A program made the position numbers and the translations under genes. From positions 74,643 to 138,642 of the forward strand of contig NMRA01000655.1 of the NCBI GenBank assembly GCA_002633005.1: a stretch of DNA of 64,000 nt, in the 5' to 3' direction. Positions within the stretch are counted from its first letter, which is position 1, and each line of letters starts with the position of its first letter. The stretch comes from Phoronis australis (taxonomy: Eukaryota > Animalia > Phoronida). Below the pieces are notes generated by a model. The model was not told where the DNA came from. It searched no databases and was given only the letters and a program-made list of their open reading frames with translations. Below, piece after piece: positions 25,406-63,234 of this stretch.

Positions 25406-25610
25406 CAACTGTTATTACTACTATTATTAGTATTGTTAGTGTTATTGTTGTAATTATCATTACTAATTTTCATTTTATATCTATTATTAGTATTGTAATT
25501 GTTATTCATGTTACTATTGTTGTAATTATTATTAATACGGTTGCTGTTGTTGTTATTATTATTATTATTAATATTAATGATAATGCTCATAATCATAATG
25601 TTTAATGTTT
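25406..25610. repeat. Degenerate (ATT/GTT)n microsatellite
   Basis: Visible triplet low-complexity tract. Confidence 0.9.
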
Positions 25611-25612
25611 AA

Positions 25613-29475: not shown

Positions 29476-32400
29476 ATGAAACATTGTTTTCGAGAGAAAC
29501 TGTTCATCACTCTTTGTTGCGTTTCCTACGTAGTTTCCCAAGAGACATCGTGCAAGCAAGTTTCAAGTTGCGCATGCGAAACGAATGATGGCAGAAGGAT
29601 CGATTTATCTCCCCTCGCTAATCGTGACGGCACCCCTGCGTAAGTACAGCTACAGTGTAAGTGATCGCTGGAGTACTTTTGCTTGCGAAATGCAGTTCTT
29701 TTTTGATACATCACTATTCATTTCTTCTGAACTCAATTCTTTTTTCTTGCACCAGAGCTCCTTTTTAAAGAAGAACGTTCCTTTCACCGGCACATGAAAT
29801 TACAATTGTTTGAAAGAAAAGATTGCCAATCATAAGAAAATGAATGGGATTGGTGAAAAGATGTTCCAGTACATTGTTAATGAGTACCACGTGCAGGCTA
29901 TGATTAAGGACAATGTTCAATCCTCATTTGGTTACGGCGAAAATTTAACCTTGAATACCTAATAGGTAGGAAATTTGTTCTTACAGGTTCAAAGCGACAC
30001 CACTTAGCTCTCGACCAATTAACACCTTTCTGTGGAATCCGTGTTTCAACTTCCATGGTAACGGCTTATGTGGCAATGTGGCGGTTAGTGGGATTGTATT
30101 AGAGCACAGTTTTTATTTGTTAATAGAATTTTAACACTTCATACAGTTTCAGAAAAATTATCATGGACGCCTAATATCTCGTGGCGAAATATTTGATTAG
30201 CAACATTGTTAAATAACTCTTTCCAATTTATGTTGCGAATCGAAATTGTCCGGTACTGCCTGATGCCCCAGTTTTAGACCAAGAACAATGACTTGGGCAG
30301 CGGTGAAATGATACGGCGATACATCCTTTAGAAACATTCGTTAATTCCAAACCTGATATAAAACCTTCATTCATTACCAAAACATAGTGATGACTCCCAA
30401 GAGAATTTCACACGATCATGTACACAGCTTCCGTATGTGCTAGCCTGCGGTTCTGCATTCTGCATAAAAGTGACGATTCTTGAATCACAAGCATGAATAT
30501 ACGCCATGACAAATGAATGCAACCAAGGACATGTACCAAGCAAAGCCTTTGAAAATCCCGAAAATGACAGTGGCGCTTATTGTGTTATAGGCTTGTAAGA
30601 TAGAAAACTACGGTGACACACGTTACGTTAATCTGGGTAATCAGACGTCAGCAAAGTTCCAGAGCATAGAACACGAGTTAACGCTCTTCTACAGCAACGA
30701 GAAAGACGAACCTTTAGAGTGAGTGGACAGCAAGACCACGTTAAAGTGACTTTAAGTCCTCATTTTATGAAATTACATTAGGCGATTTAGGCTACTTACA
30801 TGAATTATTTTCTAATTGATTCTTTACTTAACCTGGCTAACCAGTTTATGAGCCGTGTATTGTCTTTAGCAATAGCGAATGGTCAGTTATCCCCATCTGA
30901 TTAAGGATTAGTTTGTAATGATAAGTGGTTTAAATTATTAATCCATGGTCCAGTTTTGCATGAGTTCAAATTTTCACTCGCAAAATATTCAACCACTTTC
31001 ATATAAAGTGTCCGTTTATACTGTATCTTACTTTGAAATCGACACACAAAGTTTTCAATACTTTCGCAAATGACGACGGATATCTTGAGACTTAGTGCAG
31101 ACGATGAACTACGCCTCTAATGTAAGTGATCTCAACTCGCTACTCATTTCTGGGCAAAAACGAACCGTGGTATTCTCTTTGCTAGGCGGTATGCCAACTA
31201 TCTAAGTGGTTGCATAATTCCTTTGACTCGTGAACATAAATTGTCACGTAGCCCGGCATAATAAGATGCGAAATTGAAGCTACCACGAATTTATGTCCTC
31301 AAAGAGGCTTTCCAGAGTCATACGGTTTGTAGAGTTGAACACAAATGAGGCTTTATGATTGAACAGGACATACTGCTGAAAATCATCCAGACGTCTGGCA
31401 ATGACTGCTGATGATTGAACTAGTCCCACCAGATCACCTGCCAACAATTAAACGATTTGACAACATTTTCCTGACGGTGCACCTATTGTCGATTTCTGAC
31501 GCCGACGCCGGGTCCAATTACAATTAAGCTCCTCACATTTGCTAGACTGGCTAGATTGCCGGCCGATATGACCATTTTTAGCCCGGAAACTCGTCGTATT
31601 GGCGTCATCACCAGAAATTCGTGAACTAGGCCATCCGCTAGGTGGCGATCGTCGTGTGAGTGTTTGCCAATCACAGTCTAGGTCAGAGGTCAGTTCCCTT
31701 GTTTTTCGTTTACACTCACGAAGGAGGTGATCGACAAGAATTGAAATTAACTTAAAAGTTTGGTGGAATCTGATATTGATATCACAGAACCTAAACTACC
31801 GAAGCACGTCGAGACTGTGGGCAAGGAATTTCTGCAAATTGAACGTGTCATAGCTTGAGGAAAATCGAAAAGAGTGAGTATAAACATGCCAGGCATAGCT
31901 GGTGTAGCACAGCTTAGTTGATTCAGTGACTGACCAACCGAGTTGTTGCTGCACACAATTACTTAATATGATTTTACTGTCGATTTATTAATAACTATTT
32001 TATAGTTGCAATGGTCCGTGAAATGTGTTTTAATATAGCCTGATTACGTCTGTTACACTTTCCCACTCAACGAATTCATTCCTGCCCGTATGTACTATTA
32101 AACTTGCAACACAAGCACAGCTGTCTGACCTCAGTCCTCAGGTTTAAAATAAGTAGAGTGTCTTTAGGTCAGCATTATGGTATTATGCTGCAAAACAAAT
32201 TAATTTCGATTCAGACTAACAAAATGCCGATGTGCTTGATTTATTCTATAAATCTGGAGATTCTGCTGCTGATACGTTGCTTTTATTTTTAGGTTGGCTG
32301 GACCTTTTGCTTACATAATTCGCCAGAGAGACTGCAGTTGGAAACCAGAGTGCATTTAACACCAGACTTTGCCCCTCTGTACACCAAGCTATTGCTTCCT

Positions 32401-35400
32401 CTCAAAATCAAGAGGCGGTCAAAAAGATCACTTTTCGCAAGATTGTAGTGACCATTGGTTGATGATTCCAATCTTAGTTAGGGTAAAGTTCGTATTATCC
32501 CAACACTATATTCATTGCATGCAGAACTCGATATAATTAAGCGTGTACATGCTCGAAAATACAATAAAAAAGTTAAGTATGAATGGGAAATTGACCTCAC
32601 CCGTACAATCTAACAGGTACGGAGCGAACGTTCAGCATTTTTTTAGGTCGTCACTTTTTGCGAGTCCAAATCCGGGAACACGAGTGCAGAATTTGCGGTC
32701 ACTCGTATTTTCGAGCAGGCATTTTCGCCTGTGTCGAGGGCTGGCATGAATATGTTTGTTTTTTATTTTTGAAGTGCATCAGATGTCATCTATGGAAGTA
32801 GTGCTGATATATTTTACACTAGATTTTATTTTTGTTTACTTCATCTCTTATGAGTATTTTCACATGTGTTGAAATTCAGTTATTCCTCGTGGTTGATATT
32901 TGTAACATTTGCATTTTTTGTATTCATTTATGATGTTTATTTCGTGCTAAGTGATGTTGCTGTTTTCACAACAATCTCTTATTGCATGCAAACATGTCAT
33001 ATGAACTGGCTAAATCTTCCATTCTAGTCATTTACTATTTAAATCTGAACACTGCTATTTAAAGCAGCATTGGTGGCATTTTGTATGTTTAGCGTTATAA
33101 AAATAAAGTTTTGAACAAAAATTACTCATTTGTTTTTTCTGGCTATTATATGAACTCCTGTTTCTGTTGCTGGAAAGTCCATTCCATATTATTTACTTGT
33201 ACATTTACCAGCGCAACCTGTTTTGAACCCAAACTTTACACTGCATAAGTGGATTTAGGCTTCCCTTTCGCACACGATAAAAATGGCATTGACATGTCGT
33301 TTTCAGTTTCTGAAATCCTTATCCATTTCTGATACCTACTACTGATTCAGGAATGATAAAATTTTGTTCCACTCACCAGCACAGTGTGTTTTGAAACCAA
33401 ACGCAGGGGCGGATCCAGGTTTTTTTTAAAAAAGGGTGTCCAAGTCAATTCGAAAATTCTAGATTTCACGTAACTAAAATCAAGGGAAAAAGGGATCCGA
33501 AACCCTTTGACCCCTCTGGATCCGCCTATCAAACCGTGACGGTACGCTGCATAGATGGATATAGGGGGGTCCGAGGGGGCCAAGGGCTCCCTCATTCTGC
33601 ACACAATAAAAAATGGCGCCGATCTTTCGTTTTCAGGGATCTCACGAGGGTTTGTCCTACGCCCCTCGCAAGGCTATTATGAAGGTTTATCCTTCGGAAA
33701 TTGAGGTCGGGCCCCCATCATCTTAATTCCATTGATCCGTCTATGGGTATGAGTTCTTTTTTTAATAAATGTGATACCTTCAACACAGCACTGATAAATT
33801 AAAAACAGCAATATAATGTTAAAAAGAACTAGTACAACCTTAACCGAGCTGCGTCTCATGAATTGCTCTATTTGCAATAATTTCAGAATTCATTTTTTTA
33901 GCAAAATGCATGACCGACTGCTTCTTGTTGCACTACTGGGAATTAACATAATCATTCCCGGCTAAATCTTCCTCATTTGAGCTTTCAAATCGTACTACAG
34001 ACCACGAAACTTTAAGTGACTGCTTTTTACATTTCTGGCCGCGAATCCGTTTTCAACACCCTGTTGGACACCCGTTTTTTTCAGAAAATTCGTTCGAAAA
34101 CAGCATTTGTGATATCTAGGTCACACTGTTAGTGACCTGCGCTATCGGCAAACAAGGGAACTGAATTATACTCTCCACAGATTTGATTGATTGCCTTCCG
34201 GGCGATTGGCTGTGACCATCAACATGGGCTAACTTCAAACTTCAATGGACACCAAAAAATCTTCACCAATCTTTCCAATATTCAGCATAATGAATCATTA
34301 GATCTATGTTTTTCTCGCTAGCTATCGGCAAATTGCAGAGTTGTCTCCCCTAAATCAAAATTCCTCGGAAAAACCCTTCGTGTGTATTTCTGTGGGGGAA
34401 TAGTTAGCTGCTGGCTGCGCATGCGCACTGCCTATGTCAGATATTTCTGGCGTTGGTTGTGTTGAAACATCCAGGCATGTGACCAAGGCATATAGTGAAC
34501 GCAGACCAAAGATTATTTTTCTCTGTAATCGTGTGAACTACAGTTACACTGGTGACCACGGAACATGGAACTCCCAGTGTCCATGGACAGGGTTCACTCT
34601 CAGTGTCTATATATCGGACATGGTTCACAGCTTAGGGACAGTATAGGCACAAAATTACGAACTCAACTGGATGCTTGAAGTGAACGATAGAACGACAGCC
34701 GAGATGACAGCATACGCCAAGACGTGCAATACAATAACAACTGAACAAAATGCTGGTTAATTCCTGTGTTCTTGTCTGCAATGGCTACCGTAGGTAAAAT
34801 CGATATATGCAAAATAAACATAATTTGCGGGACTCAAAAGAGAATTTGAATTGTTTTGACATGAGCATTATATGAACTCAAGAAATAAATATGTTTGTTA
34901 AAAATAAGAATATAGGTTTCAAACCATACCTTTAATCGTCAGCTTTATTGCAGATATTTGGACATATTGCTCATCTGTAACGAAACCGCTGAGGAAGACG
35001 AATTGATAGTTTTGGAGAAAAACGTAAGGCAAATTTAATCAGTGGACAACTTCATGTTAGACGTATGTGCCTAGATGTGGGAAAAAGATTAAAGCCTACT
35101 ACGGAAGCAAGTCCTTTTTATGATGTAGGTACCCCGTCGCACAGATTTACAATACGTTATACGTGAATTTGAAGCATTACTCAGAGACGTTCCATTGATT
35201 TTGAACACACATGCACTTCCAATTCAAATCGTTCTCATTTTCCAGTATCTAATGCTCACTAGCAAATATTGCTGCCCTCGATCACAATACAGTACAGTAA
35301 ACACGACTGTTGCGACATCTGTAGCGCCATCACCACAACCGAACGGATACCGTCTCAGCGCTGGAAGTGTCCTGCTGATAATGTAAGAATTTATGTCTAG

Positions 35401-37595
35401 CTATTTTGTTACTGTCTCCATTGAGTTCTGTGATTGAAAGTTTAAGGTAAAAAAACAGAGGGGCTGAACTGTAGTGTTTCTAAACACCAAACTGAGGCGG
35501 CAAGTTCGCCTCACTTAAATTGTAAAGCAATTACAAGATATTTAAATGTGGCATTTAGTATTAAAATTAAAGCACATGGTTTTCAATTAGACGGTCTTCT
35601 TTTAGATGTCCTTTGGTTATTGCTGTCTATCTTTTGGTGGGAGGAACGTATTTGAAATTTGCCAAAGGGCGAGGATGTCCCGACAATATCCCGAACTATG
35701 AGTTCTGGATTGAATTACCTTCGCTAGTGCTGGTAAGCAATGTAAAACTATTAATGGCGAATTAAGTCATTTTATGACTAGAATACCAATTCAGTAATTC
35801 CTTGTCATCATTTACTTTTTATGCTTAAATGTGAAGGGTAGACATGTCACTTAAATGTGAAGGGTAGACATGTCACTTAAATGTGAAGGGTAGACATGTC
35901 ACTTAAATGTGAAGGGTAGACATGTCACTTAAATGTGAAGGGTAGACATGTCACTTAAGTGAGTGTGATCTCTTGCTTTACTTGTAATGCATGGCGATAT
36001 CACACCACACAAAGACTTTTACGTGATCTAGCTTTTCTCAAAAGAATCTTGGCATTCAGAACGCAGCCCAGTTTTGGGATTTAATCTCTTTATTCGACGG
36101 TAGACTCGAAAATCGTATAGCGTGGTTCGACTGAACCTGCAATTTAGTTCTCGATTAACGCGCCACGGTTGCTTAAATTTTTTTTTCTTAACTTCCACAA
36201 ATTTCCTAGTTATCTTAACCCATGCTTAATTGCTTAATATTTATTTTAAAGTTTACCGTCAAGGCAATGAACTTTTTGTACAGAAATGAGTGAAAATCGC
36301 TACCACTCTTTGTATCGACATGCGCAAACTAGTGTCATCCCAAGAACTCTCAACCAAGCATTGAGCATTTGGGCACTGATTCCCTAATTACTGGATGCTA
36401 ATAGACGCACAACCACAAACTCGTAATATAACACTTCAAACTCGTTTTTAGCGCCCAATAAACCTGCTACACACTCGATCGCTGCTAGCCATTCATCCAA
36501 AGATGACCTGTCGTGTGTACACACTCGCTGCTAACATTTTCACAACGTGCAAAAATTAAATTCATCACAAACCCGCCTTTTACCACCAAACGACTTTTCA
36601 TCTGTATCACTTACCGATATAAAATCGGCCTCACACTGTTCCCTTGTCGAAAGGAAGATGACATCCGGGCTTCGAAAGGACTTAAGAGTTCTTTATTGCT
36701 TGAAGTCAAAATTGTCGGTTTATGAGCCGAGTGTNNNNNNNNNNNNNNNNNNNNNNNNNNNNNNNNNNNNNNNNNNNNNNNNNNNNNNNNNNNNNNNNNN
36801 NNNNNNNNNNNNNNNNNNNNNNNNNNNNNNNNNNNNNNNNNNNNNNNNNNNNNNNNNNNNNNNNNNNGGGGGGGGGGGGCATCGTGTTGCCTCGGGGAAC
36901 TGCGGGGCAAAGCGCGAGTGTATGTGCACAGGCGCCAGAAATTTGCGGGGTCCGGGGACGTGGACCTTCATCTGTTCAAAAAAATCTGCCGGTGAACTAA
37001 AAAAAAATAGCGAACACCATTCCGCCGCCATCTGGGGCCTGAGCCCCCTCCCGTACCGGTCCTAGTTCCTGAACGCTGTTGCTGTTTCAATTTCCTTGCG
37101 GTAGCCAAGGGGGAGGGGGTTAAATCCCGCCTATAGTGCAAACCCAAAAACTCCTTTTCAGTAAGTTGAGACTACTATAGCGGTAAGTAGTCTAAGGCAA
37201 GAGTTCACTTCTTGGACCCACCCCAGTTCCTAAAACTTTCACCGCTGTCAATATGCTGGTTTTCAGACTCCAACATGTGATATTGACTGAGATGAAGTTG
37301 GCCGCTGTTGGGTTTATCATTTTGCACACGTGTCCAAACCGTATTACAAGTGGGAGTTTTGTTATCTAGTTCAGTTTACAATGAAAAATATGACTTTAAT
37401 GGAGTGCATGTAATGTCATTTCCAGTAATATCTCTGATGCACATCTGTTTTACATCTGGTATGAGATCGAAGATTACTGTTTGGATGCAGTTTCCCATCA
37501 AATTTGCTCTAAAATAAATGTTCTACGTGTATTTTCAGGAAGGATGTCGCTTTGTATTCAGGGATTGCAGAACTGATGTGTACCGAAAGATTTAA
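29476..37595 (+). CDS. MRH-domain type I membrane protein, CD-MPR/ATG27-like, paralog A (259 aa)
   Basis: Exons 29476-29639, 29987-30083, 30591-30718, 34954-35023, 35246-35382, 35606-35732, 37539-37595; all GT-AG, phases 2,0,2,0,2,0, 780 nt open. Features in order: signal peptide, CKQVSSCAC..IDLSPL..WNPC..C..AC..LG..LIC..LTSKYCCP, S/T/P stalk, TM LSAGSVLLIICPLVIAVYLLVGG, tail IPNYEFWIELPSLVLEGCRFV..YRKI*. Confidence 0.9.
35824..35958. repeat. 26-bp minisatellite, 5 copies
   Basis: CTTAAATGTGAAGGGTAGACATGTCA repeated five times with no spacers. Confidence 0.95.
36735..36867. other. Assembly gap (N run); further gap at 38353-38381 and single N at 40608
   Basis: N characters; both N runs adjoin poly-G tracts. 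Confidence 0.99.
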
Positions 37596-37941
37596 ACATG
37601 GGAGCTAGAGTCTAATGAAAAGATATTACGCCTGCACTGCTTATTTGTCACACTCGAAACTTAGGAAATCTGTGCGAGTCGGCTAGATATAGCATGATGC
37701 TTTTGTAACTACATGAAAATATTAATTCACCGATTATCGTTTTGCTTCATTCCAGGAGCGTGTTAGAGAATACAATCCACTTGCTCTGATAAAGTCGTGA
37801 TTACTTCATTTATCGCTATTAATCAGGTTGTCATGTGATTTCAACCTCGTGTACAGGAAATACATCTTTTAGTGCGAAACATGAGATATATATGATTTGA
37901 GGCCACCGTCGTCACCGTGGAAGCAATATTGAAAAACTAGA

Positions 37942-40900
37942 ATGGAACCGTCGGTGAATTCTGCCACAGCCATATTCTTTCTATTTCCGCTGATAATATG
38001 GCCAAACACATGTCAAGGTGAAATTCAAAATGTAAAATGTAAGAAGCAGTTGTCTGATTGTTCGTGTGATCTTGAAAATGGTGCTGGGACTATAAATCTT
38101 ACGTCGTTAATGAGATCAGACGGAATACCAAAGTAAGTAACTTTTGTTTCGAACGTTTCCTTCAACATGAGCGCATGGAGGTGAGCCGGGAGAGGCACAG
38201 CTCAAAGCGACCGTTCAGAAAACAGCTTAAGGGTATAAGAGGTGACGAAAGTTCAATACGAGCAGAGGGGGAGTGGTGAAACTGGTATTACACAGGTGGG
38301 TGGGGGGAAATGTGTCTGATGGAGACGACTGGTGACTGGGAGGGGGGGGGAGNNNNNNNNNNNNNNNNNNNNNNNNNNNNNTGGGAGGGGGGGGGAGTGC
38401 AGAGTGCGTTAGTATAATCATAAATGGTGATTTTAATGCCCGAAACTCTACATGGTACAATGATGATCATGACAATACGGCCGGAATACAATTGTTTGAT
38501 AATCTTATTGTCTAATGACTGCATACAGCTAATTAATGAGCCAATCCGCATCACCGACGTTTCTCGTTTGATATCTACGTAACAAACAATTTGAGTATCA
38601 TTGACTCGTGTTCTGTACTACCTCCTGTTGGCAATTCTGTTCACCTCACAATCGAAACCCCTCTCACACCTAAAAAACCGGTTAAAGAACAACACACCAC
38701 ATGAACCATTTGGAAATATGATCAAGTCAACACCGATAAGTTACGTCAGGATATCACCTACGCTGACTGATATATACTGGACACTGGCGACATTGATGAC
38801 ATTGTTTCACTCTTCACTAGTACTCTCTATGAAATTTAAAAAAAATACAACTTCCCATCAACTGAAAAGATAATTCAACACAACAGCCAACCGTGGTTCA
38901 ACAATAATATTAAACGGGCAATCCGCACAAGAAACAGACTTTACAACTCTTTCAGGAGATCTAACAACACTGTAATCTACAACAGATACAAGGAGCAGTA
39001 ACGCCAGGCAGAGATTTTAGTAAATCAAGTTAAAGCTGATCACCGCCACAAGCTTTTTCAACAAATTAACAATGCAAGCTAGAACTCCAAAGAATACTGG
39101 AACATCATCAATATAATACACGGCAGTCAACAACAATCAAGTCATCAACCACAATGGTAACCTAGCCTCAAGTAGCAGTGACATGTGTGACGTGGTTCTC
39201 AAAATTTTCACGAACAAAAGCCACACTACACCAACTGAAGTAGGTAACTTTCCTTTCTTCGTGAACGTTGTGTCAATCAACTGTCCGATATCCCGGCTAA
39301 TCAAACTGCTATCCGGATGTATCTCAATGAAATTGATCCCAATACGAATGATGGTACAGATTTTACCACCAGCAGGATGATCAAAATGGTTTCCAACGAA
39401 ATTACCATGCCCTCAACCAATCTATTTAACAAACTTCTTCAGCTAGGTATATATCCGTCTTCTTGGAAAAATAGAATTATGGTCCCTATACACAAAAAGA
39501 CTCCAAAACTGAAATTTCAAATTATCGCCCAATAACTTTACTTAACACGCTATCCAAAATCTCCGAGAAGATCATTGCTCAAACAAAACAACTTGATCTA
39601 TCATCGTCAATTTGTTTTTTTTTGCATGAGAACAATAACGTGCCACAACTTGTTGAAATAGTACATGAGATTCATTTACATTTTGAGAAGGGCGGCAGTG
39701 TCAGGTCCATTTTTCTAGATATAGCTTCTGCTTTCGACTGTGTCCCTCGCGATCTTCTACTTCACAAACTTCGATTAAATGGCATTACTGGGAATCTTTT
39801 AATCATGATCACCTCATATCTCTCCGATCGTACATACAGTGTTCGTGTCGACGGCGTACTTTCAACTTTATCCCCTCCTGGATTGGTAAACGCAGGTGTA
39901 CCTCAAGGTAGCGTATTGGGCCCTCTTCTCTTCTTGGTTTATATTAATGACCTTCCTGATAACCTGTCATGTAATACATACCTTTATGCACATGACACGG
40001 CGCTTTTTTACCCCTTTGCAGGGAGCAGCCTTGAGAGTTCTTTGCAGCTTCAACAAGACAAATAAACTCAGCTATTGGTCACAAGAATAAAGAATGAATT
40101 TTAAACCAGAAAAAAACGTTGACCTCACTTTCTCAAAATCGATTAATGCTCTCTTCCTTGTTGACCCGTCTTATGACCTTAAACTTATTGATGAAATCAT
40201 TCCTAGAAAACAGTCGCACAGACATCTTGGTAAACTGTTAGATGGAAAACTCATTCACTCCTCATGTTCGGGAGCTTGTACAAAAACTCGGAAACTAATT
40301 AACCTACATGTACTTAAGCTTGTCTCTCGTCATCTGTATTGTACACATTTAGAGGTTCTGTTCAAATTCTTTATACTTCCACACATCGATTATTGTGATA
40401 TAATATATCAGTCTGCCAATACTGGTGCACTCCAGCATTTGGAGAAATTACAGTATCATGCTGTCTTACTCATAACAGGAGCTTACTGGGGATTCAATAG
40501 TGTTAAGATTATGAATAGTCTCAAGTGGTCCAAACTGTCTACTCGACGCAATCTTCACATGACCACATTTACTTTCAAAGTAATAAACAATGTCAACAAC
40601 TCCTCTGNAATGATGGTACAGATTTTACCACCAGCAGGATGATCAAAATGGTTTCCAACGAAATTACCATGCCCTCAACCAATCTATTTAACAAACTTCC
40701 TCAGCTAGGTATATATCCGTCTTCTTGGAAAAATAGAATTATGGTCCTTATACACAAAAAGACTCCAAAACTGAAATTTCTAATTATCGCCCAATAACTT
40801 TACTTAACACGCTATCCAAAATCTCCGAGAAAGTCATTGCTCAAAGTATTCCTACATTTCTCAAACAAAACAACTTGATCTATCATCGTCAATTTTTTTT

Positions 40901-43900
40901 GCGTGAGAACAGTAACGTGGCACAACTTGTTGAAATAGTACATGAGATTCATTTACATTTTGAGAAGGGCGGCAGTGTCAGGTCCATTTTTCTAGATATA
41001 GCTTCTGCTTTCGACTGTGTCCCTCACGATCTTCTACTTCACAAACTTCGATTACATGGCATTACTGGGAATCTTTTAAACATGATCACCTCATATCTCT
41101 CCGATCGTACATACAGTGTTCGTGTCGACGGCGTACTTTCAACTTTATCCCCTCCTGGATTGGTAAACGCAGGTGTACCTCAGGGTAGCGTATTGGGCCC
41201 TCTTCTCTTCTTGTTTTATATTAATGAACTTCCTGATAACCTGTCATGTAATACATACCTTTATGCAGATGACACGGCGCTTTTTTACCCCTTTGCAGGG
41301 AGCAGCCTTGAGAGTTCTTTGCAGCTTCAACAAGACAAATAAACTCAGCTATTGGTCACAAGAATAAAGAATGAATTTTAAACCAGAAAAAAGCGTTTAC
41401 CTCACTTTCTCAAAATCGATTAATGCTCTCTTCCTTGTTGACCCGTCTTATGACCTTAAACTTATTGATGAAATCATTCCTAGAAAACAGTCGCACAGAC
41501 ATCTTGGTAAACTGTTAGATGGAAAACTCATTCACTCCTCATGTTCGGGAGCTTGTACAAAAACTCGGAAACTAATTAACCTACATGTACTTAAGCTTGT
41601 CTCTCGTCATCTGTATTGTACACATTTAGAGGTTCTGTTCAAATTCTTTATACTTCCACACATCGATTATTGTGATATAATATATCAGTCTGCCAATACT
41701 GGTGCACTCCAGCATTTGGAGAAATTACAGTATCATGCTGTCTTACTCATAACAGGAGCTTACTGGGGATTCAATAGTGTTAAGATTATGAATAGTCTCA
41801 AGTGGTCCAAACTGTCTACTCGACGCAATCTTCACATGACCACATTTACTTTCAAAGTAATAAACAATGTCAACAACTCCTCTGTCAAAAATATATGATC
41901 TATACATTAGGCAAGGCCATCGTAGCGATTTGAGATCCTCCACCCCATATGCAATTCTTCCGTCGTTCACTCAGGCATTCAGAAGGTCTACAGTTATGAT
42001 GTGCATCAACTGGAATTCTCTTCCAGTCTCTGATAAGGAAAGGAAATCTTTTACGAGAATAAAAAATAATTTTAGAACTGTTTTTCATAATTCAACACCC
42101 AATTCTCCCTTTCCCGCGATAACGAAATAGCAATGCGCAGATCAAGATGCGGTCTTGTCCTCATTTCCAACAAGTATAGGCACAACTTTAGTAATGTCTC
42201 TCCAAACTGTAAATGTGGTGACCATCAATCTTATCCTCATGTTTTCTTCAGATGTCCCCTCGTCGAATACCTGAGAGACTCACTCTTTCGTACATTCAAT
42301 GAAAACCAATCAATTGTGAAAGCTCTCAATTCTGGTAATAATATCCCTCCTAAAGTTACATTATTACTGAATGGTAGTCCTAACCTTGACCTTGTTCTCA
42401 ATGGATTCCTCCAAAGTAAACGTAAGCAATTTTTATGTACCGTTTATAAATATTGTTGGTTCTGATTTCCATAAATGAATCTGTGCATGTTTTTGTTTTT
42501 ATATGTTCGTAATAGCATATCTAGATATTGGAATACTTATATTAGATGCTACTTAAATGTATATACCTCTATGTATATGTTCGCAATAGCATATCTAGAT
42601 ATTGGAATACTTATATTAGATGCTACTTAAATGTAAATACCTCTATGTATATGTTCGCAATAGCATATCTAAATATTGGAATACTTATATTAGATGCTAC
42701 TTAAATGTATATACCTCTATGTATATGTTCGCAATAGCATATCTAAATATTGGAATACTTGTATTAGATGCTACTTAAATGTATATACCTCTATGTATAT
42801 GTTCGTAATAGCATATCTAAATATTGGAATACTTATATTAGATACTACTTAATTGTATTTACCTCTATGTATATTAGTTACATTTATGAATTGTCTACAA
42901 CCCAGATATAATGTTTCGCGATTTCTGGGTTTGTCATTATTTCTTTGTATGTTCTGTGTATTCTTCAATACACATATATCACTTAAAAAAGTGCAAAGAC
43001 GGGAGAGGTGATGGCCAAGAGCCGCTGCACTCAATTTTTCTTCTCACTGAACAAACCCTGTCTACCCTCACACATGAAACGTACATGTGCATTCACGTGG
43101 AAGATTTTGCCAGAGGAGGTTTGTGCCAATACTTTCAATAAAATTCACCAGAATGTATTCATTTGCGTGTTTAATACTAAATGTATTCATTTTTGCTTAT
43201 GGTATCACCATCAAAATACTGTAACGCTCAATTTTATTGTCAGGTTCTCAGGGGCCAAATTTGGAAAGGAGTACAAGTGGAACCCGTGCAAAGATTTCAC
43301 ACTTCAAAGTTGCAAAAATGTTGCGGTAAACATTTTCTTCGTCTCTTACTCCCTTATTGTGTTCTGTTTCACGATGTGCAGGTCTCTAAGCTAATAAAAA
43401 TAACACATTGAATCTTTATAAAATATGAGGATTCGACACAGTTTGACAGAACACGTAAAGTATTCCTTGTTTTTACGACACTGACTAACTTTTAAAACAC
43501 TTGAATATGATTTTCAATTTCAAATAACAGATTATTTGATGAAACAAATGTTGACTTTGCGCTGAATTTTTTTTTTAATTTTGGCGTTTAATAATATCGC
43601 GCGACATCAAATTTTACAATGACGTCTTACTAAACAATGGGCAAACCCCAAGTGTAGACTACTTAGTGTAAACATTAGGTACATACGCAAAACGTACCGA
43701 GAGTGGCGTAGATGAAGTTATATCACACGAGACATTTTTCCGCGTATCGACCGAGATCGGGTTAAGTGTATTTATCCCATACGCTTCGAATTCCAAAGTT
43801 TCTTTCATTTTTTTGGCAGATTTTCAAATACTTCACCTAGACTGTTAACGTGGCCGATCACATCCGATATGTATGTACTTGCGCGTTAGGTTACAAGCTT

Positions 43901-49165: not shown

Positions 49166-49875
49166 TACTTTTTTGAGGACTGTGTCAATCATTTTCATGG
49201 AAATATTTAACTATTTATTAATGATAAGTCATGTGCATCATGTGGCCATATCGAAATTATGGTACTTTATTTCATTCGCTATTTTAAATGTCACAAAAAT
49301 TAACAGTGGCATTCCAGTTCCAAGAGTACGTCATAAAATATCACCCCTGATGTACTTGTCACTGGGTGGTCCGTGGTACACCTCTCTTTTTTGTCCGTTT
49401 CGGCTTACGAACATTTAGCCACCGAACCTTCCGAATATTAGGTGAATCACACAAGGCATATTTCGTCCTCCGCAGGGTTTTGGAATCGTTGCACCTTTGC
49501 CCAGAATGGCTATGCTTATTGCACTGGATGACGTGGTTACATGTTGCGGTCACATGATGTAAGGTGACCACTTCGCCAGTCGATGACGACCATTTTGACA
49601 ATTTCCAATAGTGTCAGAGCGTACCCAGTTTTAAAGCCACAGGTTCACCGTGCGTTACTACTGTAACAACACGTAGTTAATTTCATGTGATAAGGAAAAT
49701 ATCAATTCACCGAGACTAAAGGATTTGTAAAAGTATTTAGATATCGTATCATGTCATTTCATAGAATGAATCATTGTCTACTTAGCATGCACAGGGGCGA
49801 GAGTATATGTAAATGTTGATAATACAGTGTATATGAGGTATCGCCTTTATACTCTTCGAGTCGTATGTTCTGGAT

Positions 49876-52800
49876 ATGACTTGGTTTCGCGTGTATATTA
49901 CACTTCTGTTTATTTTTGAACGGTCCTGTTCATCCATTCAAAACCTCAAGTGTAAAAAGCAACTTTCTAGCTGTAAATGCGAGTTGGAAAATGACGGAGG
50001 TATCATAGATCTCATGCCGCTGAGCAGGAAAGACGGAGCACCAAAGTAAGTTGCCTTTTACACGTATCCTATTTGTACCCAAACTTTGGTCATGTACATG
50101 AACAAATGTGCTGTACTTATATTCCTATAAAGCATTTAAAACACTTCTGTTGTGAGGTGATAGAGACATCAAAAAATTTTTCGCACCTTTCACACTGATT
50201 TCAAAGAAAACCGTGTATAAATCCATGTCAATTATTTACAGTTTTCGCGTGAAAAAAATCAAATTTCGTTTTGATTCCCCTTCAAAATAATTTCTCTAGT
50301 TTAATAATTTAATGACATAAGCACAAATAAATAAAATAAGGGCGCATAGATCGAATGCTTGAACTCAACGTAGTCATTAGCCTGGTTCAACAATGGTCCT
50401 TAAAATTTTACCGACCAGATCTTTCCCTTTTCCATTCGCTTGAAGGTTACTTGTATTTGCAGCAAAAATCGTCAAACTGAACAAGAACGTTCTCTGAATA
50501 TGGTAGGAGTTCCAGATCTGGGTAGGGCAGTGCAGAGCCAAATTTATGAACTTTCATTACTCAGAATTACTGAATAGAATTCGTGGCAATCAATCCCCGG
50601 TTACTTCACTGAATCTTTCCATTTTTGGGAAGTGCATGCCCTAACTGTGGCTTTAAACAGAATGAAAATCAGGCCAGAAATCGCCAGGAGCTTTTTAATG
50701 AGGCTTTAGACACTTAATACTCTAACAGAAGAAAAACTACCGTTCCAATTCTTTTCGGTTTTAGATTTTCCAGCGTCTATTCTGGATACACGTACAAATG
50801 GAATCCATGTTTGAACTGTTCTGTAGCAGATGCCTCAGAATGCGCTAACGTGGCTGTGAGTATAGATTGGTGACGTACAGTTAAGAAGTTGTATTATAAA
50901 TACATGCTTGTACTTTTGAGTAATGGTTTGCTTTGAACTAAACAAACGTAAAGTTTTATCCAATGCCCTATTGACCAACAATCTATACTTTACACATATA
51001 ATGGCCATCTATGTGGCTGCTTCATTTTCTTGTTTTTTATTACCATCCATCGCCGACGTTGTTCGTGTAACCTTGTCTTGGGTCTGTTTCATGAAAAGTG
51101 ACTTAACACTTAAGACAGACATTTTGTTTTACATATACACATAACTGCAAGTTACTCAGATAAATCCTCTAAATTATGTGTCGTATTCACAATTACTTGG
51201 CGAAACATTTAATCGTGGCCTGTAAATCAATTTTGATGTTGTCCAGCAGTTTGATCGTTATACATGTTTCAAGTTCATATAAACAACGTAAATGGTGAAT
51301 GATTTTCCTGCATCATAAACTCAGCGATTCGAGTATCAGTACAAGTAGGAATTGTGCAGACTCTTTCAATGCAGCAATGAGAGCACAGTTTGCCGGATGT
51401 AACACGAATGTACTATTTTTGAGTTGCCTTAAGTTAAAATCCGACTAATATGAACTTACCTTGGGTTTAGGTGTGCCAGGTTTCCATTTACAACACAAAC
51501 TATTGTTACTCGATGGGAAAACAGTCATCGGCAAAGTTCTTGACGCCGGACGACAGAGGGCTACAGATATCCTACTCACACGTGGACGGAACCATGACAA
51601 AGTACAACGCTTTTTGAAAGTCACATAACATATCCATAGTAGAAAAGGGGTGCGCTGCGTGGAACACATTTCTTGCGATAAATCTGAGATCAATTATCAG
51701 AGGTGGCAGTGAGGCCTTCTGGGACAAGTGCCCATTAGCTTTACTCGAGGTCGTGGATTCGAGTCCCACCGGGGCACACTGCTAATTCCTCGAGTCACAT
51801 CTCTAGCCCCTCGGCTCAGTTTTAACTATAAATTAATAAACATAAAAATAGTTCCATATGATCAGTGCAGTGGGACCAGCTGAGCAACCTCTGCACGTTT
51901 GGTGCAACGTGTACCAGACCAACAGCAATTATTTTTAAGTCCACTTATCGTTTGAGCAAACACGGGGAAGTCCATGGAAAAAGGCGAATGTTTCTCGAGT
52001 AAGTTTGACACTTGTACATGCATAGGCTAGCAGAAACGAGCATGACTTGGCGGCGAGATTGCAAAATTGAATTGTGAAAAAATAAAGGTTTCTATTTCCT
52101 ATGCGAAGATTTCTCATTGCAACTGTGTACCGAGTGTTTTAATTGTGTTACGGAACGCAACCCATGGGCCGCAAGTCTCTAGCGAGTGTTTTGTGTTACG
52201 GAACGGCATTAAATCTGTGTGTCAATACAAGCTTAGATTTAGGCCACGTATATGTACTGTACTGTTGTGAAACTGGCCTAAAATTTTCTCCGTAAAAATA
52301 GGTGTCATTCCTGGGCTTGGAAGAACTGACAGCTCGTCATTTCTTAGCTCAGACCAACTATGAGCAAAGCGTGACCGGAATTTTTGCAAGCTTGCGCATA
52401 TTTTAAGCAAATAATACGCGTTGAAATAAACGTTAATGGAGCTATTATAAATAGAAACTAGTTTTCTTCAGTGTATAAACTTGCATTTCTAACAAAACCA
52501 CACAGATTGACAATTCATAAAGGCAGGAAGTCATTACCAGGAAGGGCAACATTAATGTTCTGTGCTACAAATTGCACTGTCTGTGCAATCACTCATCGAA
52601 TTTATTCGCCGATGTCTGTTATTATAAGGATCATCGTATTCTCATACCCTGTTGTTCCTTTTTAGGAAATCTCTTATAAGTCTGCAGTGCGAAGAAAACA
52701 GCGAATATAACACATTTACAGTTGATGAATCGCGGTCTATTGCTCCCGACTATAAAGTCACCGAATACGTAAGGAGGTGTCCCAGGCACAGTTGTGCACG

Positions 52801-52973
52801 TAAAATCTAAAGCGATCTTCGGCAAGTTAGTCCAAAAAAGTTTTTCATAAGTAAAACTTCATGTGACTGGACTTTCTAGGTCACGTGATGTGACCATGTG
52901 ACTGTGATGACCATATATATTTATGTATGTATATATATATATATATATACATACATAAATATATATGGTCATC

Positions 52974-53005
<32 letters not shown>

Positions 53006-56000
53006 TTATGTATGTATCATTGTTCTAAGTGTAAAAATACCTCTACTACTTTCAGTATGATAAATGTTGACGCACTTCGAATTTGTTTTTTCTACAGAAA
53101 ACTTATTTACTATTTGGAAGCGACAATGTCAAATTAATTACCGTAAAACTACATTAACCATTTCATGTAATCGATGATTGTGTTTTGCTTGGCTAAAAGT
53201 TTGCTTATGACGCATCAGTGAAGCAGTGACTAATGGATTACAACCAGTGCATTTTTACATTGTTCACTGAGTTACATACACAAATGAGTGAATGACGTGT
53301 TATTTTGAAGGCATCCATGATCTCGTAATTTAGCTTTCACGAAAATACTTGATGAAACATCTTGCTACGTCCTCGATAAGATCTTCTAATGCAAGCTTTT
53401 AGTGAAGCATTATGGGAAATATTAATGTAACCAACTCACATTACGTTACTGAAGAAAATTCCCATAATTTGTCAGTCTATGCTTGCTTCAAAGGCACGGT
53501 GAACGTTGAACAGCTCAACAGTGATCGTTTCAGTATATGACATTGAAGAGCAAGCACTGCTGCCCTCATTCGGCACTCACCACGGCCGTTCCAACTACGC
53601 CCGCTCCACCACGACCGGCGATCACAATAGGAACTATTTTAGTTATTATGTAAGGCAATTTTCAATTTAATTCATCATAATATAAGCCACAGTGTATGCT
53701 TATATTTAGTTGCTGTTAACTAAGGACATTGGGACTTGCTCAAGACCACTCTAAGCTCTGTATAGTAAATCTGTCGTGAACCTAAACGCTTCAGATTAAC
53801 AGTAGCTGAAGGGCCTCTGAGCACTGTAGTTCCTATCGCGTACACACTTACAACCAAGGACAACCGAACCAAATAGGGGTCCCACAAAACACAATTTACA
53901 AGAGGGTCCTAAGGTTAAAGTAGTGCAATTCAGAGCGATGTGAATTCAGTGCAGAGACATTGGTATTGGGCATGCGTAGCAATGGCAAGCAAAGTGGAAA
54001 CTGGGGTACTGCATGTGGAAAGGTGCCTAGACACGTGACCTGTCTGTCAAAAGATATTTACATACAAGTTAGAGAAGATTTATACCTTTGGAACACTCGA
54101 GGTATTTGCGGTGCTCAAACATAACGTATAGAATTGTAGTGAGGAATTGACAGGGACCTCAGGGGTCTCAAACTCCACTGATTATCAATATTATTTTGAA
54201 AACGCTTTGCCCTGTCACACATTGTGTGTCATAAAATAGATAAGCATACATGTAGCCCCCTACCTGCAGCTGACGCAGCAAGTAGAACTACTCTCGTTTA
54301 TCACATTGGTGTACGTAGACTCACAGTTGAACTGTGGTTTTCTGTTGACCCCAGACCGTCCGGAGTTGCACCATATACCAACTCCGGACGGTCTCTCACG
54401 ACAATTTAGCGTTATGAAATGCACCAAAATTCAATACGGGTGCTAAGGAACACAAAAAAGGCGGGTGACAAGAGACGGTTTCACGCAAATCTTTTGTTCT
54501 TCCCGCTGTTTCATCTACACATTATTGTCTTTGCAGGTTCTTCGTGTCCGGCACTCTTTATTTTGTATGTGGTATATTGTTCATGACGTATGTGAGGGGC
54601 GCTACCAACTGTCCTGAACGCATTCCTAACGTTACCTTTTGGAAAAACTTACCCGGATTCATTAAGGTGAGGGTCACAAAAACACGTCATCAAACAAGAC
54701 GTTCAGAATTAAATTTTGTAGCATGCATGTAAACGCAAGGAAAATTCAGATAAGCGAGAGCGAATTGCGGCACAGTGGACCTCTCATTTGGGAAAATATT
54801 GGAGACATATAGAAACTTGTTTGAAATCGGTGGCCACCTGGGGTTGAGCGGTGGCATAAAAACTGAAACTGCTGGTATTGTGGTTTCCACGGGTAACTGG
54901 TGGCAACAGGAATAGCCAGATATTGGCAGCGACCGGAGATAGGGGTGGGGGATAGTGAAATTCTCGTGCGCCTTCAGCTAGGATGTCCAGATACGCCTAT
55001 TCATGTATGGGGTTTTTCTAGTAATGACAGGGCCTTAGTAATAGTTGTCGACTTTTAAAAATAGAAGAGAACCGACGCTTCTGCTTGGTGCTAAAGCAGA
55101 GATATTCGAGAAGTTGAGAGTTCTAAATTTAGCCACTTTATATCTCTGGGCTGATGACTTCTCCTGTCATCCATAAAACAGGTTACCCGAACAACACGGG
55201 TTAATGAGTTCAACACTCGGTATTGCATTATGTTTAAACAGTTCGCTCAAGTATACACGGCTCACTGACCCTTTGAACCGAGTCCACTGGCTCACAGACA
55301 CAGCTGTTGATGTCCAACATTGCGCCGTCACTGCAGTAGCCAGAAGTATTCAACAAAGGAGAGAGGGGGGAGGGGAGTGCTGGGTGAGTGCAAACGCAAA
55401 ATTTTTGGGGAAAGTATCGGACACCAAACTGAAAAGACTTCGACCGGGAGGACGGCTTTTCTGTAATAAATAGGGGAGCCTTAGCCCCTGTAGCTACGCC
55501 AGTGTAATTAAGTTCACCGGCGAAACACGCCTGAGGTTCCCAAACAATTTGTCGCTGGAGTTACAAACAATGCTCACTGACCTAATGTTCGTTTTCCGCG
55601 AGGACCATGCTTGTGAGCTTGGGAATGATTTGCTGGGTACAAAAGACGAGTTTGTCCGGCAACGTGTTTGGTTGATGTCGAGCCGTCTTGTGAATCGGTA
55701 AACCGAGTTTATCGGATCCGTGAACCGTGTTACGAGATGGAACCATGGTTATGATTGCGGTAGGAGTGTTGTTCCGGTAGCATGCAACGGTTAAGAACTA
55801 CAACCAAGCTCAATCAAGACTCACTACATGTAAATGTACGATAAGGAAGTTACGGCAACGGGGATTTTGACGACTAAGAGCCGAAGGAGACGGTAACACT
55901 ATAAAAAGATTCTTGGTTTTAATTGATTGGACATGGGCATTTAATTTACATTCTGAACGGGAGGTGTGGAGTACATTTTTTCCTCTCCATTACACAAATT

Positions 56001-58176
56001 TGCCATCGACATTAAATACCCGCTTGTATCGACTCATTATCCAACCAATCCAGACGGCACATTTCCCTATCTTTTGTGTTGCTTATAGCGCATAGCGCAT
56101 GTTTTGTTTAGGTGAAGGTATATAATTGAGCGCAGGCTTCTTTCGGCCTTACCATTCAAGCATCAGAAGTCAGTTTAATTTTGACGTGGGTAAACCCAGC
56201 TATGGCGAACTTATTTCTATGATTCGAACACTGATTTCGGTTACACTCTGTGTTCTTTATATTCGTAGAATCATTAATGCATGAAAATGTATAGTTTTCT
56301 TAAAGCAGTTTTGATAGGCAGAGTTGTTTGTCTCATTTTATGGTCTAGCTCGCGACTTATGATTCACTCTGCCCAGAAACACAGTTTGAATGATTATCGA
56401 TAACCTGAATATCAAGTTCAAACGCCTGCAGCTTCGCATTGCGCAAAATGGTGACCAGGAGTACTCGTACCTCGTATGGAAAGCCAAAGAGGAAAAAATT
56501 CAGGACACATATCCTATATTCACAAATTAAAAACTCTGCAGGACCAAAACAACAACTCAAAACCAGACCTATACATGTAATTATGTCGGGACCAAAATTT
56601 AACACTTCAGCACCGAAAATTTATCACGTCAAGACAGAAATCTTTCATGCCAGGAGACCTCGTGACCATCCACAAGCCGGTGTCCACGAACACTTGGACA
56701 GTGACCTAGATAGATATCTTGTAGCAACTTTAGTGAATCATCTGCATTTTGATAAAATGCACACAGGCAGACAGGCTGTGGTATTCATCCATATTCAAGT
56801 CTAATGTGTCCAAATGTGGAAGAAACATCGGAAATGCGTTCAACCTCATTGTCTCGACAATATGGTAGTCTTTGGCGAGACATTGTTGAACGCTTAGCCC
56901 TTGTGTACCCTCGCTGGTTCCCTGCGTGCCGCCAGCAGGTATCACTTAATTTTCCTCGGGAAATTTTTTTACACCTGCGTTTCTGATTGGCTAGTCGAAT
57001 TTTCAACAGGCAGCGCTTTACGCAAACAAACTGACATGACTGATGGACGGAAGTGTAAGTGTGGTCTGTTGTACAGACAAATCCGTGCTTAAAATTTATG
57101 TTAAAAAAAATGTGAAGCCTTTTCGGAATGCATCTTTCTACTGTCGATGACTTTTGTTTACGATAGTGTCCTGTATTCATACAGTATGAATAACACACCG
57201 GTTAAATCGGCCAGATATGTGTTTATTGTACACGTATGTGCTTCAAGCACGCGGCTATTTAAACATCACTGCAGAAACGAAATAGTTGCTGCGACGCCAC
57301 TTGCATGACAAGGCTAAAAATCGTTCACAGTCCGCCATTTTTTCACGGTATTGTAAAGCTAACCAATGACTGCCGAGGTTATATCGACCAATGCTATAGC
57401 GCGTGCCACTGCGTGATACCTGCGTGCTGGCTGGGCTAAGCACGCAGGGAACCAGCGAGTTGTGTACCTAGTAGTCACGTGATCGCCTGCCATGAAATAT
57501 TTCTGGCGTGATAAATTTTCTGTTCGGAGACGCGTTAACTTTTCGGTGGTGGCGTATGAAATTCTGGTTCTGACTTGTTATACTTTCAGTCCTGACGCGA
57601 TAAATTATACGTCTTGACGTTAGAAATTTTGAATCGTGACGTGATAAATTATACGTATTGACGTGATGAATTTTGGGTCTTGACGTGATAAATTATTGGT
57701 CGTAACGTGATGAACTTTAGGTCATGACGTGACAAATTAAAGGTCGTGACCTGATGAATTTTGGGTCGTGACGAAATAAATTATAGTTCGTGACGTGATG
57801 AATTTTGGATCGTGATCTGATGAATTATAGGTCTTGAGTTGTTTTTGGTGTTGCAAATTGAAAAAACATTTTAGAATGTTTGTAATTTTTGGATAATTGA
57901 GGCATAAATGTTCGTCTTGCAGAGTAAAAATAATGTTTTGTCTTGTTTTTGAGTCTTGCACAGAAAATAAGTTTCCTGGATTTGTTGCGCTCTAGCTTTT
58001 TATTACCTCGCCTCAACATTAGCAGATGTAGAAGTCAATGTAAGTGATACATCCGTATAATGTTTTTAAACTACTACTGCCTACGGATTATTCCGAGATT
58101 TTTTATGTTTTAGGATGGGTTCAAGTTTACTGTCAGCGGTTTTAAGACGTCTGGCGGTGGTTATGATAAGTTCTGA
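49876..58176 (+). CDS. MRH-domain type I membrane protein, CD-MPR/ATG27-like, paralog C (267 aa)
   Basis: Exons 49876-50045, 50765-50855, 51471-51601, 52666-52768, 53534-53649, 54537-54666, 58114-58176; 804 nt open, same phases. Translation: CKKQLSSCKC..IDLMPL..YKWNPC..VCQ..LQC..YMTLKSKHCCP..ITIGTILVIMFFVSGTLYFVCG..IPNVTFWKNLPGFIKDGF..GYDKF*. Confidence 0.88.
52913..53017. repeat. (TA)n/(TATG)n microsatellite
   Basis: Visible. Confidence 0.9.
56475..58058. mobile_element. Unclassified foldback-like element with 22-bp subterminal repeats; related fragment at 10560-10765
   Basis: Inverted arms AAATTTATCACG..TTTCATGCCAGGAGACCTCGTGAC (~56618-56667) and GTCACGTGATCGCCTGCCATGAAA..CGTGATAAATTT (~57474-57519). 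A ~22-bp TGACGTGATAAATT array spans ~57590-57835. The left end TATGGAAAGCCAAA is the reverse complement of TTTGGCTTTCCATA at ~10752-10765. Right boundary uncertain. Confidence 0.5.
56910..57459. mobile_element. MULE-like MITE (550 bp) with 9-bp TSD
   Basis: TIR CTCGCTGGTTCCCTGCGTGC / GCACGCAGGGAACCAGCGAG. TSD TTGTGTACC at 56901-56909 and 57460-57468. Confidence 0.85.
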
Positions 58177-59025: not shown

Positions 59026-59075
59026 GTGTGTGTGTGTGTGTGCGTGTGCGCGTGTGTGTATTTGTGTGTATATGC
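59026..59075. repeat. (TG)n microsatellite
   Basis: Visible. Confidence 0.9.
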
Positions 59076-63013: not shown

Positions 63014-63234
63014 ATGGACATACTAGGTCGATTACGATGTTCACTGTCACTTACGAATCCGTTTAAAGGTAGAAGATGTCTCGTTATTGTTATAATAGCA
63101 ATCTCTGCTTGGCGAACTTGCGCAGACGGAGTGCAACATGTTAACTGCACGAAAATATCCAGCTGCGCATGTGAAGTAAAGGGCGGTGGGAGAATTGACT
63201 TGTCTCTACTCGATAACAAGACAGGACAGGCATC
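63014..63234 (+). CDS. Exon 1 of MRH-domain receptor paralog D (rest beyond window)
   Basis: MDILG..CLVIVIIAISAWRTCADGVQHVNCTKISSCACEVKGGGRIDLSLLDNKTGQA(S) followed by a GTAAGT donor. Same motif and same phase-2 junction as exon 1 of A-C. Start codon choice is uncertain. Confidence 0.8.

What the first reader, a model, noticed from the sequence alone, without database searches (positions are those of the whole stretch)
29476..63234. Hidden tandem array of at least four diversified single-MRH (CD-MPR/ATG27-like) receptors
Seen: three complete 7-exon genes and a fourth exon 1, all head to tail on the plus strand. They share intron phases (2,0,2,0,2,0), the cysteine scaffold, a stalk, one TM helix and a short tail, yet their luminal loops differ strongly and all frames are open. 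Established: vertebrate CD-MPR and fungal Atg27 are typically single-copy sorting receptors with one MRH domain. Inference: an old, retained and diversified local expansion points to a lineage-specific set of endocytic, lysosomal-sorting or glycan-recognition receptors (cargo sorting, nutrient uptake or innate immunity). This is the best candidate for an undescribed system in the window.
Basis: partly seen in the sequence, partly recalled or inferred. Interest (0 to 1): 0.85.

Follow-up and report, generated by a model that had tools for sequence, protein, structure and literature searches.

The report
Tandem MPR-like receptors lacking sugar site
Three complete genes and the start of a fourth, all small relatives of the mannose-6-phosphate receptor, sit head to tail in an invertebrate genome; the complete ones lack most of the residues that grip the sugar, so they likely carry some other cargo toward lysosomes, and extra copies of this family occur in several other invertebrates too.

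Summary
The array is real. Genes A, B and C each have 7 exons, 18 of 18 introns are GT-AG with phases 2,0,2,0,2,0, and all frames are open; D shows only exon 1. They belong to the single-MRH CD-MPR/ATG27-like family: 171-199 bits against a relatives' profile, and the closest relative folds as MRH. A, B and C form their own clade (95/95) under purifying selection.

The family is not single-copy in invertebrates: soft coral, a snail, amphioxus and Lingula each have two or more copies, and this scan noted a similar array on other, probably sponge, DNA. The luminal domains are no more divergent than the membrane region.

The new point: none keeps the Gln-Arg-Glu-Tyr mannose site that 49 of 84 relatives keep (A K,E,-,N; B S,K,T,Y; C Q,K,S,Y), while the FW and terminal YxxΦ sorting motifs stay. 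They are likely non-M6P sorting or uptake receptors. RNA support is thin: no exon junction was seen, D exon 1 has sense reads, and C is mostly antisense.

The parts
29476..29639 (+). Gene A exon 1: signal peptide and start of MRH domain
   Evidence: homology to B, C, D exon 1
29987..30083 (+). Gene A exon 2
30591..30718 (+). Gene A exon 3 (Lys at the Gln sugar-site position)
34954..35023 (+). Gene A exon 4 (short; loop before the last strand lost)
35246..35382 (+). Gene A exon 5: end of MRH, Thr/Ser/Pro stalk, start of TM
35606..35732 (+). Gene A exon 6: TM, Cys-Pro, IPN..FW motif
   Evidence: PF02157 E 8e-4, below cut-off
37539..37595 (+). Gene A exon 7: tail ending YRKI
   Evidence: exon chosen by splice signal and tail motif
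37942..38132 (+). Gene B exon 1, 346 nt after the stop of A
43244..43325 (+). Gene B exon 2
45141..45271 (+). Gene B exon 3 (Ser at the Gln position)
46188..46284 (+). Gene B exon 4
46994..47097 (+). Gene B exon 5: stalk, start of TM
47979..48105 (+). Gene B exon 6
   Evidence: PF02157 E 3e-4, below cut-off
49106..49165 (+). Gene B exon 7: tail ending YQQI
49876..50045 (+). Gene C exon 1, 710 nt after the stop of B
50765..50855 (+). Gene C exon 2
51471..51601 (+). Gene C exon 3 (keeps Gln; weak donor follows)
52666..52768 (+). Gene C exon 4
53534..53649 (+). Gene C exon 5: stalk, start of TM
54537..54666 (+). Gene C exon 6
   Evidence: PF02157 E 4e-4, below cut-off
58114..58176 (+). Gene C exon 7: tail ending YDKF
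   Evidence: exon chosen by splice signal and tail motif
63014..63234 (+). Gene D exon 1; the rest lies beyond the window
   Evidence: best local match is gene A among 87 proteins; sense RNA reads in this bin

Best explanation
A lineage-specific tandem cluster of single-MRH membrane proteins of the CD-MPR/ATG27-like family that keep the predicted fold and the sorting tail but lack the mannose-binding residues, and so likely work as non-M6P cargo-sorting or uptake receptors in the Golgi-endosome-lysosome system. Shown: the gene structures, family membership, one clade, long purifying selection, loss of the Gln-Arg-Glu-Tyr set, and retention of the FW and terminal YxxΦ motifs. Inferred: a signal peptide puts the MRH barrel in the lumen on a Thr/Pro stalk; the terminal YxxΦ binds AP clathrin adaptors; the proteins cycle between trans-Golgi, surface and endosomes; and the remodelled pocket or barrel surface binds protein or other non-M6P cargo, as proposed for fly LERP and shown for CI-MPR domain 11 with IGF2. 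A canonical sugar-binding copy probably lies elsewhere in the genome (not testable here), which would have freed these duplicates.
For: Family: exon 6 of A, B and C hits PF02157 and PF09451 (3 of 20 exons scanned, all below cut-off). The exon-6 profile finds 912 clusters at E<=1e-3, and 18 of 18 full-length relatives scanned pass both Pfam cut-offs. Spliced A, B, C score 171, 199 and 189 bits over the whole profile of 45 relatives. Fold by proxy: that profile hits 19 PDB sequences, all MRH proteins; the model of the amphioxus relative P0051 (best BLAST hit of B and C, E 6e-38 and 2e-38; pLDDT 88.8) matches CI-MPR domain 5 and CD-MPR. Sugar site: four side chains Gln, Arg, Glu, Tyr hold the mannose (passages of PMC9388126 and PMC9266668), and P0051 aligns to CI-MPR domain 5 at these positions. 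49 of 84 relatives have all four and 16 have three. A has K,E,gap,N (K,E,K,Y by hmmalign), B has S,K,T,Y and C has Q,K,S,Y. Tail: FW in 3 of 3 (76 of 79 relatives), terminal YxxΦ in 3 of 3 (73 of 84). Selection: synonymous sites saturated (pS 0.81-0.83) against pN 0.36-0.49, no intron-to-intron similarity, and 0 of 2000 neutral simulations stay stop-free at distance 0.5. Clade: A+B+C 95/95, B+C 99/96; a cytosolic Cys four residues before IPN in 3 of 3 against 0 of 79 relatives. Precedent: LERP and Trichomonas MPRs lack the M6P residues (passages of PMC4610224, PMC8717582).
Against: No ligand or location was tested. The window proteins themselves were not folded; the fold comes from a 34%-identical relative. 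A and C carry a Glu one residue before the expected position, so C could be Gln-Lys-Glu-Tyr at best and might keep some sugar binding. RNA support is weak: no + strand exon junction among the joints shown (15 of 33, 15 of 17). Sense depth is 0 to 0.04 in five of the seven exon bins of C, and 0 in the bin of B exon 3. The donor of C intron 3 is weak. In yeast the MRH domain of Atg27 is dispensable for autophagy (passages of bioRxiv 10.1101/2025.11.06.685569), so the tail, not a cargo site, could be what selection keeps.
Confidence: 0.55

Rival explanations
1. The copies are pattern-recognition or feeding receptors: the remodelled pockets bind microbial surface polymers or food particles at the cell surface and take them up through the YxxΦ tail.
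For: A shrimp CD-MPR is reported to bind peptidoglycan, LPS and LTA (Zhang et al. 2018, seen only as a passage and reference in PMC7148315). The three pockets differ from each other. The soft-coral pair is an independent clade that also lost the site. An Aplysia immunome survey lists 13 P-type lectin genes among immune receptors by domain content alone (PMC9334734, passages and supplement rows).
Against: The luminal domain is not hypervariable relative to the membrane region. The duplications are old and no near-identical young copies are in the window. There is no signalling domain, and no challenge expression data were available.
Confidence: 0.22
2. They are still M6P or mannose lectins with altered specificity, most plausibly C (or D, whose site lies outside the window).
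For: C keeps Gln and Tyr, has Lys for Arg, and has a Glu one residue off register. The cysteine scaffold is kept.
Against: A and B lack the Gln, which sits right after an anchoring Cys, and all three lack the Arg. Relatives keep Gln in 70, Arg in 68, Glu in 57 and Tyr in 68 of 84. The four residues are described as required for the site (PMC9388126, PMC9266668).
Confidence: 0.12
3. Some copies (B, C) are recently silenced or decaying duplicates with no current function.
For: Little or no sense RNA over B and C exons in three runs, with antisense reads over C and one antisense splice joint. C intron 3 has a weak donor.
Against: Frames are open with 18 of 18 GT-AG introns despite saturated synonymous divergence. 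Only 18-19% of each of three runs of one study, of unknown tissue, was read.
Confidence: 0.11

Closest known systems
[quoted passage not shown]
   Same: One MRH domain, one TM helix, the juxtamembrane IPN..FW block and a tyrosine sorting motif; the relatives' profile hits CD-MPR structures at E 7e-7 to 4e-6.
   Different: No Gln-Arg-Glu-Tyr site; shorter tail without the acidic dileucine (0 of 3; that CD-MPR has one is recalled); Thr/Pro stalk; at least four tandem copies.
Invertebrate 'CD-MPR-like' or 'uncharacterized' single-MRH proteins (amphioxus XP_078573446, Capitella ELU00623, Patiria XP_038045186, Dendronephthya XP_028414025 and XP_028414125)
   Same: Same size, architecture and terminal YxxΦ; best hits 32-34% identical; often two or more per genome.
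   Different: 22 of 29 named relatives keep all four sugar residues. The window copies form a separate clade with a private cytosolic Cys-Pro. The soft-coral pair lost the site independently.
Fungal Atg27 (Pfam PF09451)
   Same: Type I protein with one luminal MRH domain, one TM helix and a cytosolic tail (bioRxiv 10.1101/2025.11.06.685569, passages).
   Different: No orthology or Atg9 link was tested; fungal sequences were not in my trees.
Drosophila LERP and Trichomonas TvMPR1-6
   Same: MPR homologues that lack the M6P-binding residues and keep sorting motifs; Trichomonas has six paralogues (PMC4610224, PMC8717582, passages).
   Different: Those have five MRH domains (CI-MPR type); these have one.

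Membership tests
Single-MRH P-type-lectin-like membrane proteins (PF02157/PF09451) | Whole-length sequence homology | tested here: met
   171-199 bits against the profile of 45 relatives; 18 of 18 relatives scanned pass Pfam cut-offs; single exons hit only below cut-off
Single-MRH P-type-lectin-like membrane proteins (PF02157/PF09451) | Signal peptide, one luminal domain, one TM helix, short tail | tested here: met
   Hydropathy, (no dedicated predictor)
Single-MRH P-type-lectin-like membrane proteins (PF02157/PF09451) | MRH beta-barrel fold | tested here: inconclusive
   Met for relative P0051 and for the relatives' profile; the spliced window proteins were not folded
CD-MPR (mannose-6-phosphate receptor) | Gln-Arg-Glu-Tyr mannose-binding residues | tested here: not met
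   A K,E,-/K,N/Y; B S,K,T,Y; C Q,K,S,Y by two alignments; Glu register uncertain in A and C
CD-MPR (mannose-6-phosphate receptor) | Cytosolic FW motif and tyrosine sorting motif (recalled as CD-MPR features) | tested here: met
   3 of 3
CD-MPR (mannose-6-phosphate receptor) | C-terminal acidic dileucine for GGA binding (recalled) | tested here: not met
   Absent in the three tails and in 84 of 84 relatives
CD-MPR (mannose-6-phosphate receptor) | Binds M6P and sorts hydrolases | not testable with these tools
   Needs binding and rescue assays
Atg27 | Tail binds Atg9 and acts in autophagy | not tested
   No host Atg9 was available; no genome is held
Diversified invertebrate immune receptor family | Hypervariable ligand domain relative to the conserved membrane region | tested here: not met
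   MRH 37-54% against TM region 27-56% identity

The most novel reading that the evidence does not exclude
Invertebrates have repeatedly duplicated their single-MRH receptor in tandem and erased its mannose site (this animal, soft coral, perhaps sponges), making an unrecognised class of non-lectin MRH receptors that capture microbes or specific proteins for endocytosis; this cluster would be a four-member set with a different ligand for each copy.
Probability: 0.2. Interest if true: 0.6.

Novelty: new variant of a known kind. Interest (0 to 1): 0.3.

Why it matters
How invertebrates sort lysosomal cargo, and what MPR homologues without the M6P site do (LERP, TvMPR), is open. These are small one-domain natural variants with the site broken in three different ways, and a close family keeps it intact, so ligand comparisons are easy. 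The parallel loss in a soft-coral pair hints at a recurring route. It remains a modest gene-family expansion of a known receptor type, not a new system.

Tried and rejected
Word-based protein searches with exon 6 found nothing, and the ESM Atlas gave only two hits under 0.9 for B exon 1; neither is evidence of novelty, as HMMER then found 912 clusters. No genome is held, so copy number beyond 64 kb, the rest of D and a canonical orthologue could not be checked. No RNA holder was listed by index; three raw runs added by species label were laid instead, and repeats dominated the tables. dN/dS could not be estimated because dS is saturated. The 74-row tree finished only in quick mode (13 rows left out as near-duplicates or poor alignments); the 36-row careful tree is the one cited; no AU test was run. 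Ten literature searches listed no paper on expansion or tandem arrays of single-MRH receptors in invertebrates; the library is open-access only, and a key MRH review was not held. PMC4346834 and PMC11186620 (passages) added nothing on this family's copy number. Aplysia's 13 P-type genes include other MRH types (two proteins in the GNPTG orthogroup), so I did not count them as CD-MPR-like copies. Further copies in 1-29000 were sought and not found. No complex prediction was run, since there is no candidate partner.
Full report
Observation. The window is animal DNA (34-45% GC in 2-kb bins, spliceosomal introns, transposons), and no whole genome is held. An all-against-all comparison of 1944 stop-to-stop ORFs showed short homologous blocks recurring in order on the + strand from 29.4 kb. 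Reading the splice sites gave three 7-exon genes, A (29476-37595, 259 aa), B (37942-49165, 263 aa) and C (49876-58176, 267 aa), and a fourth exon 1, D (63014-63234). All 18 introns are GT..AG with phases 2,0,2,0,2,0, and no frame has a stop. Identities are 35%, 35% and 50%. Exon profiles found no further copy in the window. The stop-to-start gaps are 346, 710 and 4837 nt.

Family. Of 20 exons scanned, only exon 6 of A, B and C hit Pfam (Man-6-P_recep and ATG27, below cut-off). A profile of those three exons found 912 clusters at E<=0.001, of which 150 were returned. I looked up 30 of them, and one search returned 31 proteins. The named ones are 'CD-MPR-like' or 'uncharacterized' proteins of sponges, Trichoplax, soft coral, an annelid, a brachiopod, a nemertean, molluscs, echinoderms and amphioxus. 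18 of 18 scanned pass both Pfam cut-offs. Spliced A, B and C score 171, 199 and 189 bits across a profile of 45 relatives. That profile hits 19 PDB sequences, all CI-MPR, CD-MPR, glucosidase II beta or ERLEC1. The AlphaFold model of the amphioxus relative P0051 (pLDDT 88.8) matches CI-MPR domain 5 (E 9e-7, TM 0.72 by target) and CD-MPR. The window proteins were not folded themselves, so their fold is carried over by homology.

History. In the careful 36-row tree A+B+C form one clade (95/95) and B+C another (99/96), apart from an 11-row lophotrochozoan clade and from the amphioxus and echinoderm groups; the backbone is unresolved. A shared cytosolic Cys four residues before the IPN motif is in 3 of 3 copies and 0 of 79 relatives. 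D exon 1 is closest to A among 87 proteins. Synonymous sites are saturated (pS 0.81-0.83), pN is 0.36-0.49, the introns share no similarity, and neutral simulations stay stop-free in 75, 7 and 0 of 2000 runs at distances 0.1, 0.25 and 0.5. The copies are therefore old and were long kept by selection. An unchecked note on another piece of this genome suggests a mollusc; I did not test that.

How unusual is the array? Not very. Two or more distinct members occur in Dendronephthya (P0022, P0068), Babylonia (P0132, P0163), a Branchiostoma hybrid (P0164, P0181), B. lanceolatum (P0162, P0165) and Lingula (P0136, P0171). An earlier unchecked note of this scan describes a tandem MRH-receptor array on other, probably sponge, DNA. 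The claim of strongly diversified luminal loops fails: MRH identity is 37-54% against 27-56% for the membrane region, and end branches (0.54-1.31) lie around the family median of 0.88.

The sugar site. MRH lectins hold mannose with four side chains, Gln, Arg, Glu and Tyr (passages of PMC9388126 and PMC9266668). P0051 aligns to CI-MPR domain 5 across these positions. Among 84 relatives (81 stored proteins of 200-300 aa plus three longer ones; near-duplicates included, and the set is biased to the best hits), 49 have all four and 16 have three. A has K,E,gap,N (K,E,K,Y by hmmalign), B has S,K,T,Y and C has Q,K,S,Y. The Gln and Arg calls are anchored by cysteines. The Glu is uncertain, because A and C have a Glu one residue earlier, so C may be Q,K,E,Y at best. 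The Arg codon spans intron 3 and depends on the exon model. The soft-coral pair, a separate clade, also lost the site (QK-F, RRQF), as did one sea-cucumber protein. The FW motif and a terminal YxxΦ remain in all three, and there is no acidic dileucine.

RNA. Three raw runs of one study (18-19% of each read) and one small contig set were laid. A GT..AG joint at 31873-32293 is read with first mates on the minus strand, which fixes the library orientation. The bin holding most of D exon 1 has sense depth 5.65, 1.6 and 0 against antisense 0.58, 0.47 and 0; it also includes intron. The exon bins of A have sense depth of 0 to 0.8 in two runs and 0 in the third. B is ambiguous, with 0 in the bin of exon 3. 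C has 0 to 0.04 in five of seven exon bins, with antisense depth up to 2.4 in two runs; its exon 2 bin (1.2-2.1) may be repeat-derived. No + strand exon junction is among the joints shown (15 of 33 and 15 of 17). One antisense joint (about 48092-49089, 6 reads in one run) was seen. So expression is suggested for D and weakly for A, and splicing is unconfirmed.

Mechanism. Best reading (0.55): type I membrane proteins whose tails route them through clathrin adaptors between Golgi, surface and endosomes, and whose MRH barrels bind non-M6P cargo. Tail function and cargo are inferred. Precedents are LERP (PMC4610224, passages) and the Trichomonas MPRs (PMC8717582, passages). The latter paper also notes that CI-MPR domain 11 binds IGF2. 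Against a cargo role, yeast Atg27 works without its MRH domain (bioRxiv 10.1101/2025.11.06.685569, passages). Rivals: microbial or food uptake receptors (0.22; shrimp precedent seen only as a passage and reference in PMC7148315), altered mannose lectins (0.12), and silenced copies (0.11).

Verdict. A real, old, lineage-specific tandem cluster of a known receptor family. It works like CD-MPR in trafficking by inference, but it fails the defining M6P site and should not be filed as an M6P receptor. New variant of a known kind; interest 0.3.

Noticed in passing
window 47300-56400, - strand: Low antisense RNA coverage over gene C and the end of B in two of three runs, with a minus-strand splice joint at about 48092-49089 (6 reads, strong donor) that overlaps B exon 6; a possible antisense long RNA.
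   Followed up: partly
window 31600-33300, + strand: Inside intron 3 of gene A, a stretch with stranded RNA depth 12-60 and a GT..AG joint 31873-32293. Reads carry many differences, so they likely come from related copies elsewhere; no ORF over 70 aa after joining.
   Followed up: partly
window 37595-37942: Only 346 nt separate the stop of A from the start of B, leaving little room for a 3' UTR and a promoter; read-through or shared transcripts are possible.
   Followed up: no
window 39347-42465: LINE reverse-transcriptase fragment present twice (98% identical, about 1.27 kb apart, single N near the junction) in intron 1 of B; possibly an assembly duplication.
   Followed up: partly
window 927-8000: Decayed transposon genes: THAP domain (927-1229 +), DDE_Tnp_4 (6059-6403 +), YqaJ-like recombinase (7009-7998 -).
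   Followed up: partly
window 9533-10480, - strand: LTR-retrotransposon-type fragment with DUF5641 and an internal duplicated peptide.
   Followed up: partly
window 20790-26940: Nested elements with long inverted repeats (134-234 nt arms) and duplicated internal segments; likely non-autonomous DNA transposons.
   Followed up: no
window 13279-15527; 35798-35987; 42426-42948; 57534-57863: Tandem repeats: a degenerate unit of about 433 nt, a 26-nt, a 74-nt and a 22-nt minisatellite.
   Followed up: no
window 63592-64000: About 400-nt element with 33-nt terminal inverted repeats in intron 1 of D, covered by very many RNA reads from both strands: a high-copy miniature transposon.
   Followed up: no
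P0022, P0068 (Dendronephthya gigantea): Two single-MRH paralogues, probably on one scaffold, form their own clade and both lack the sugar site: a parallel case.
   Followed up: partly
P0160, P0130: Database proteins in which a single-MRH receptor is joined to unrelated sequence (an amphioxus 'melatonin receptor' of 424 aa; a Nucella protein of 1519 aa); probably gene-model fusions.
   Followed up: no
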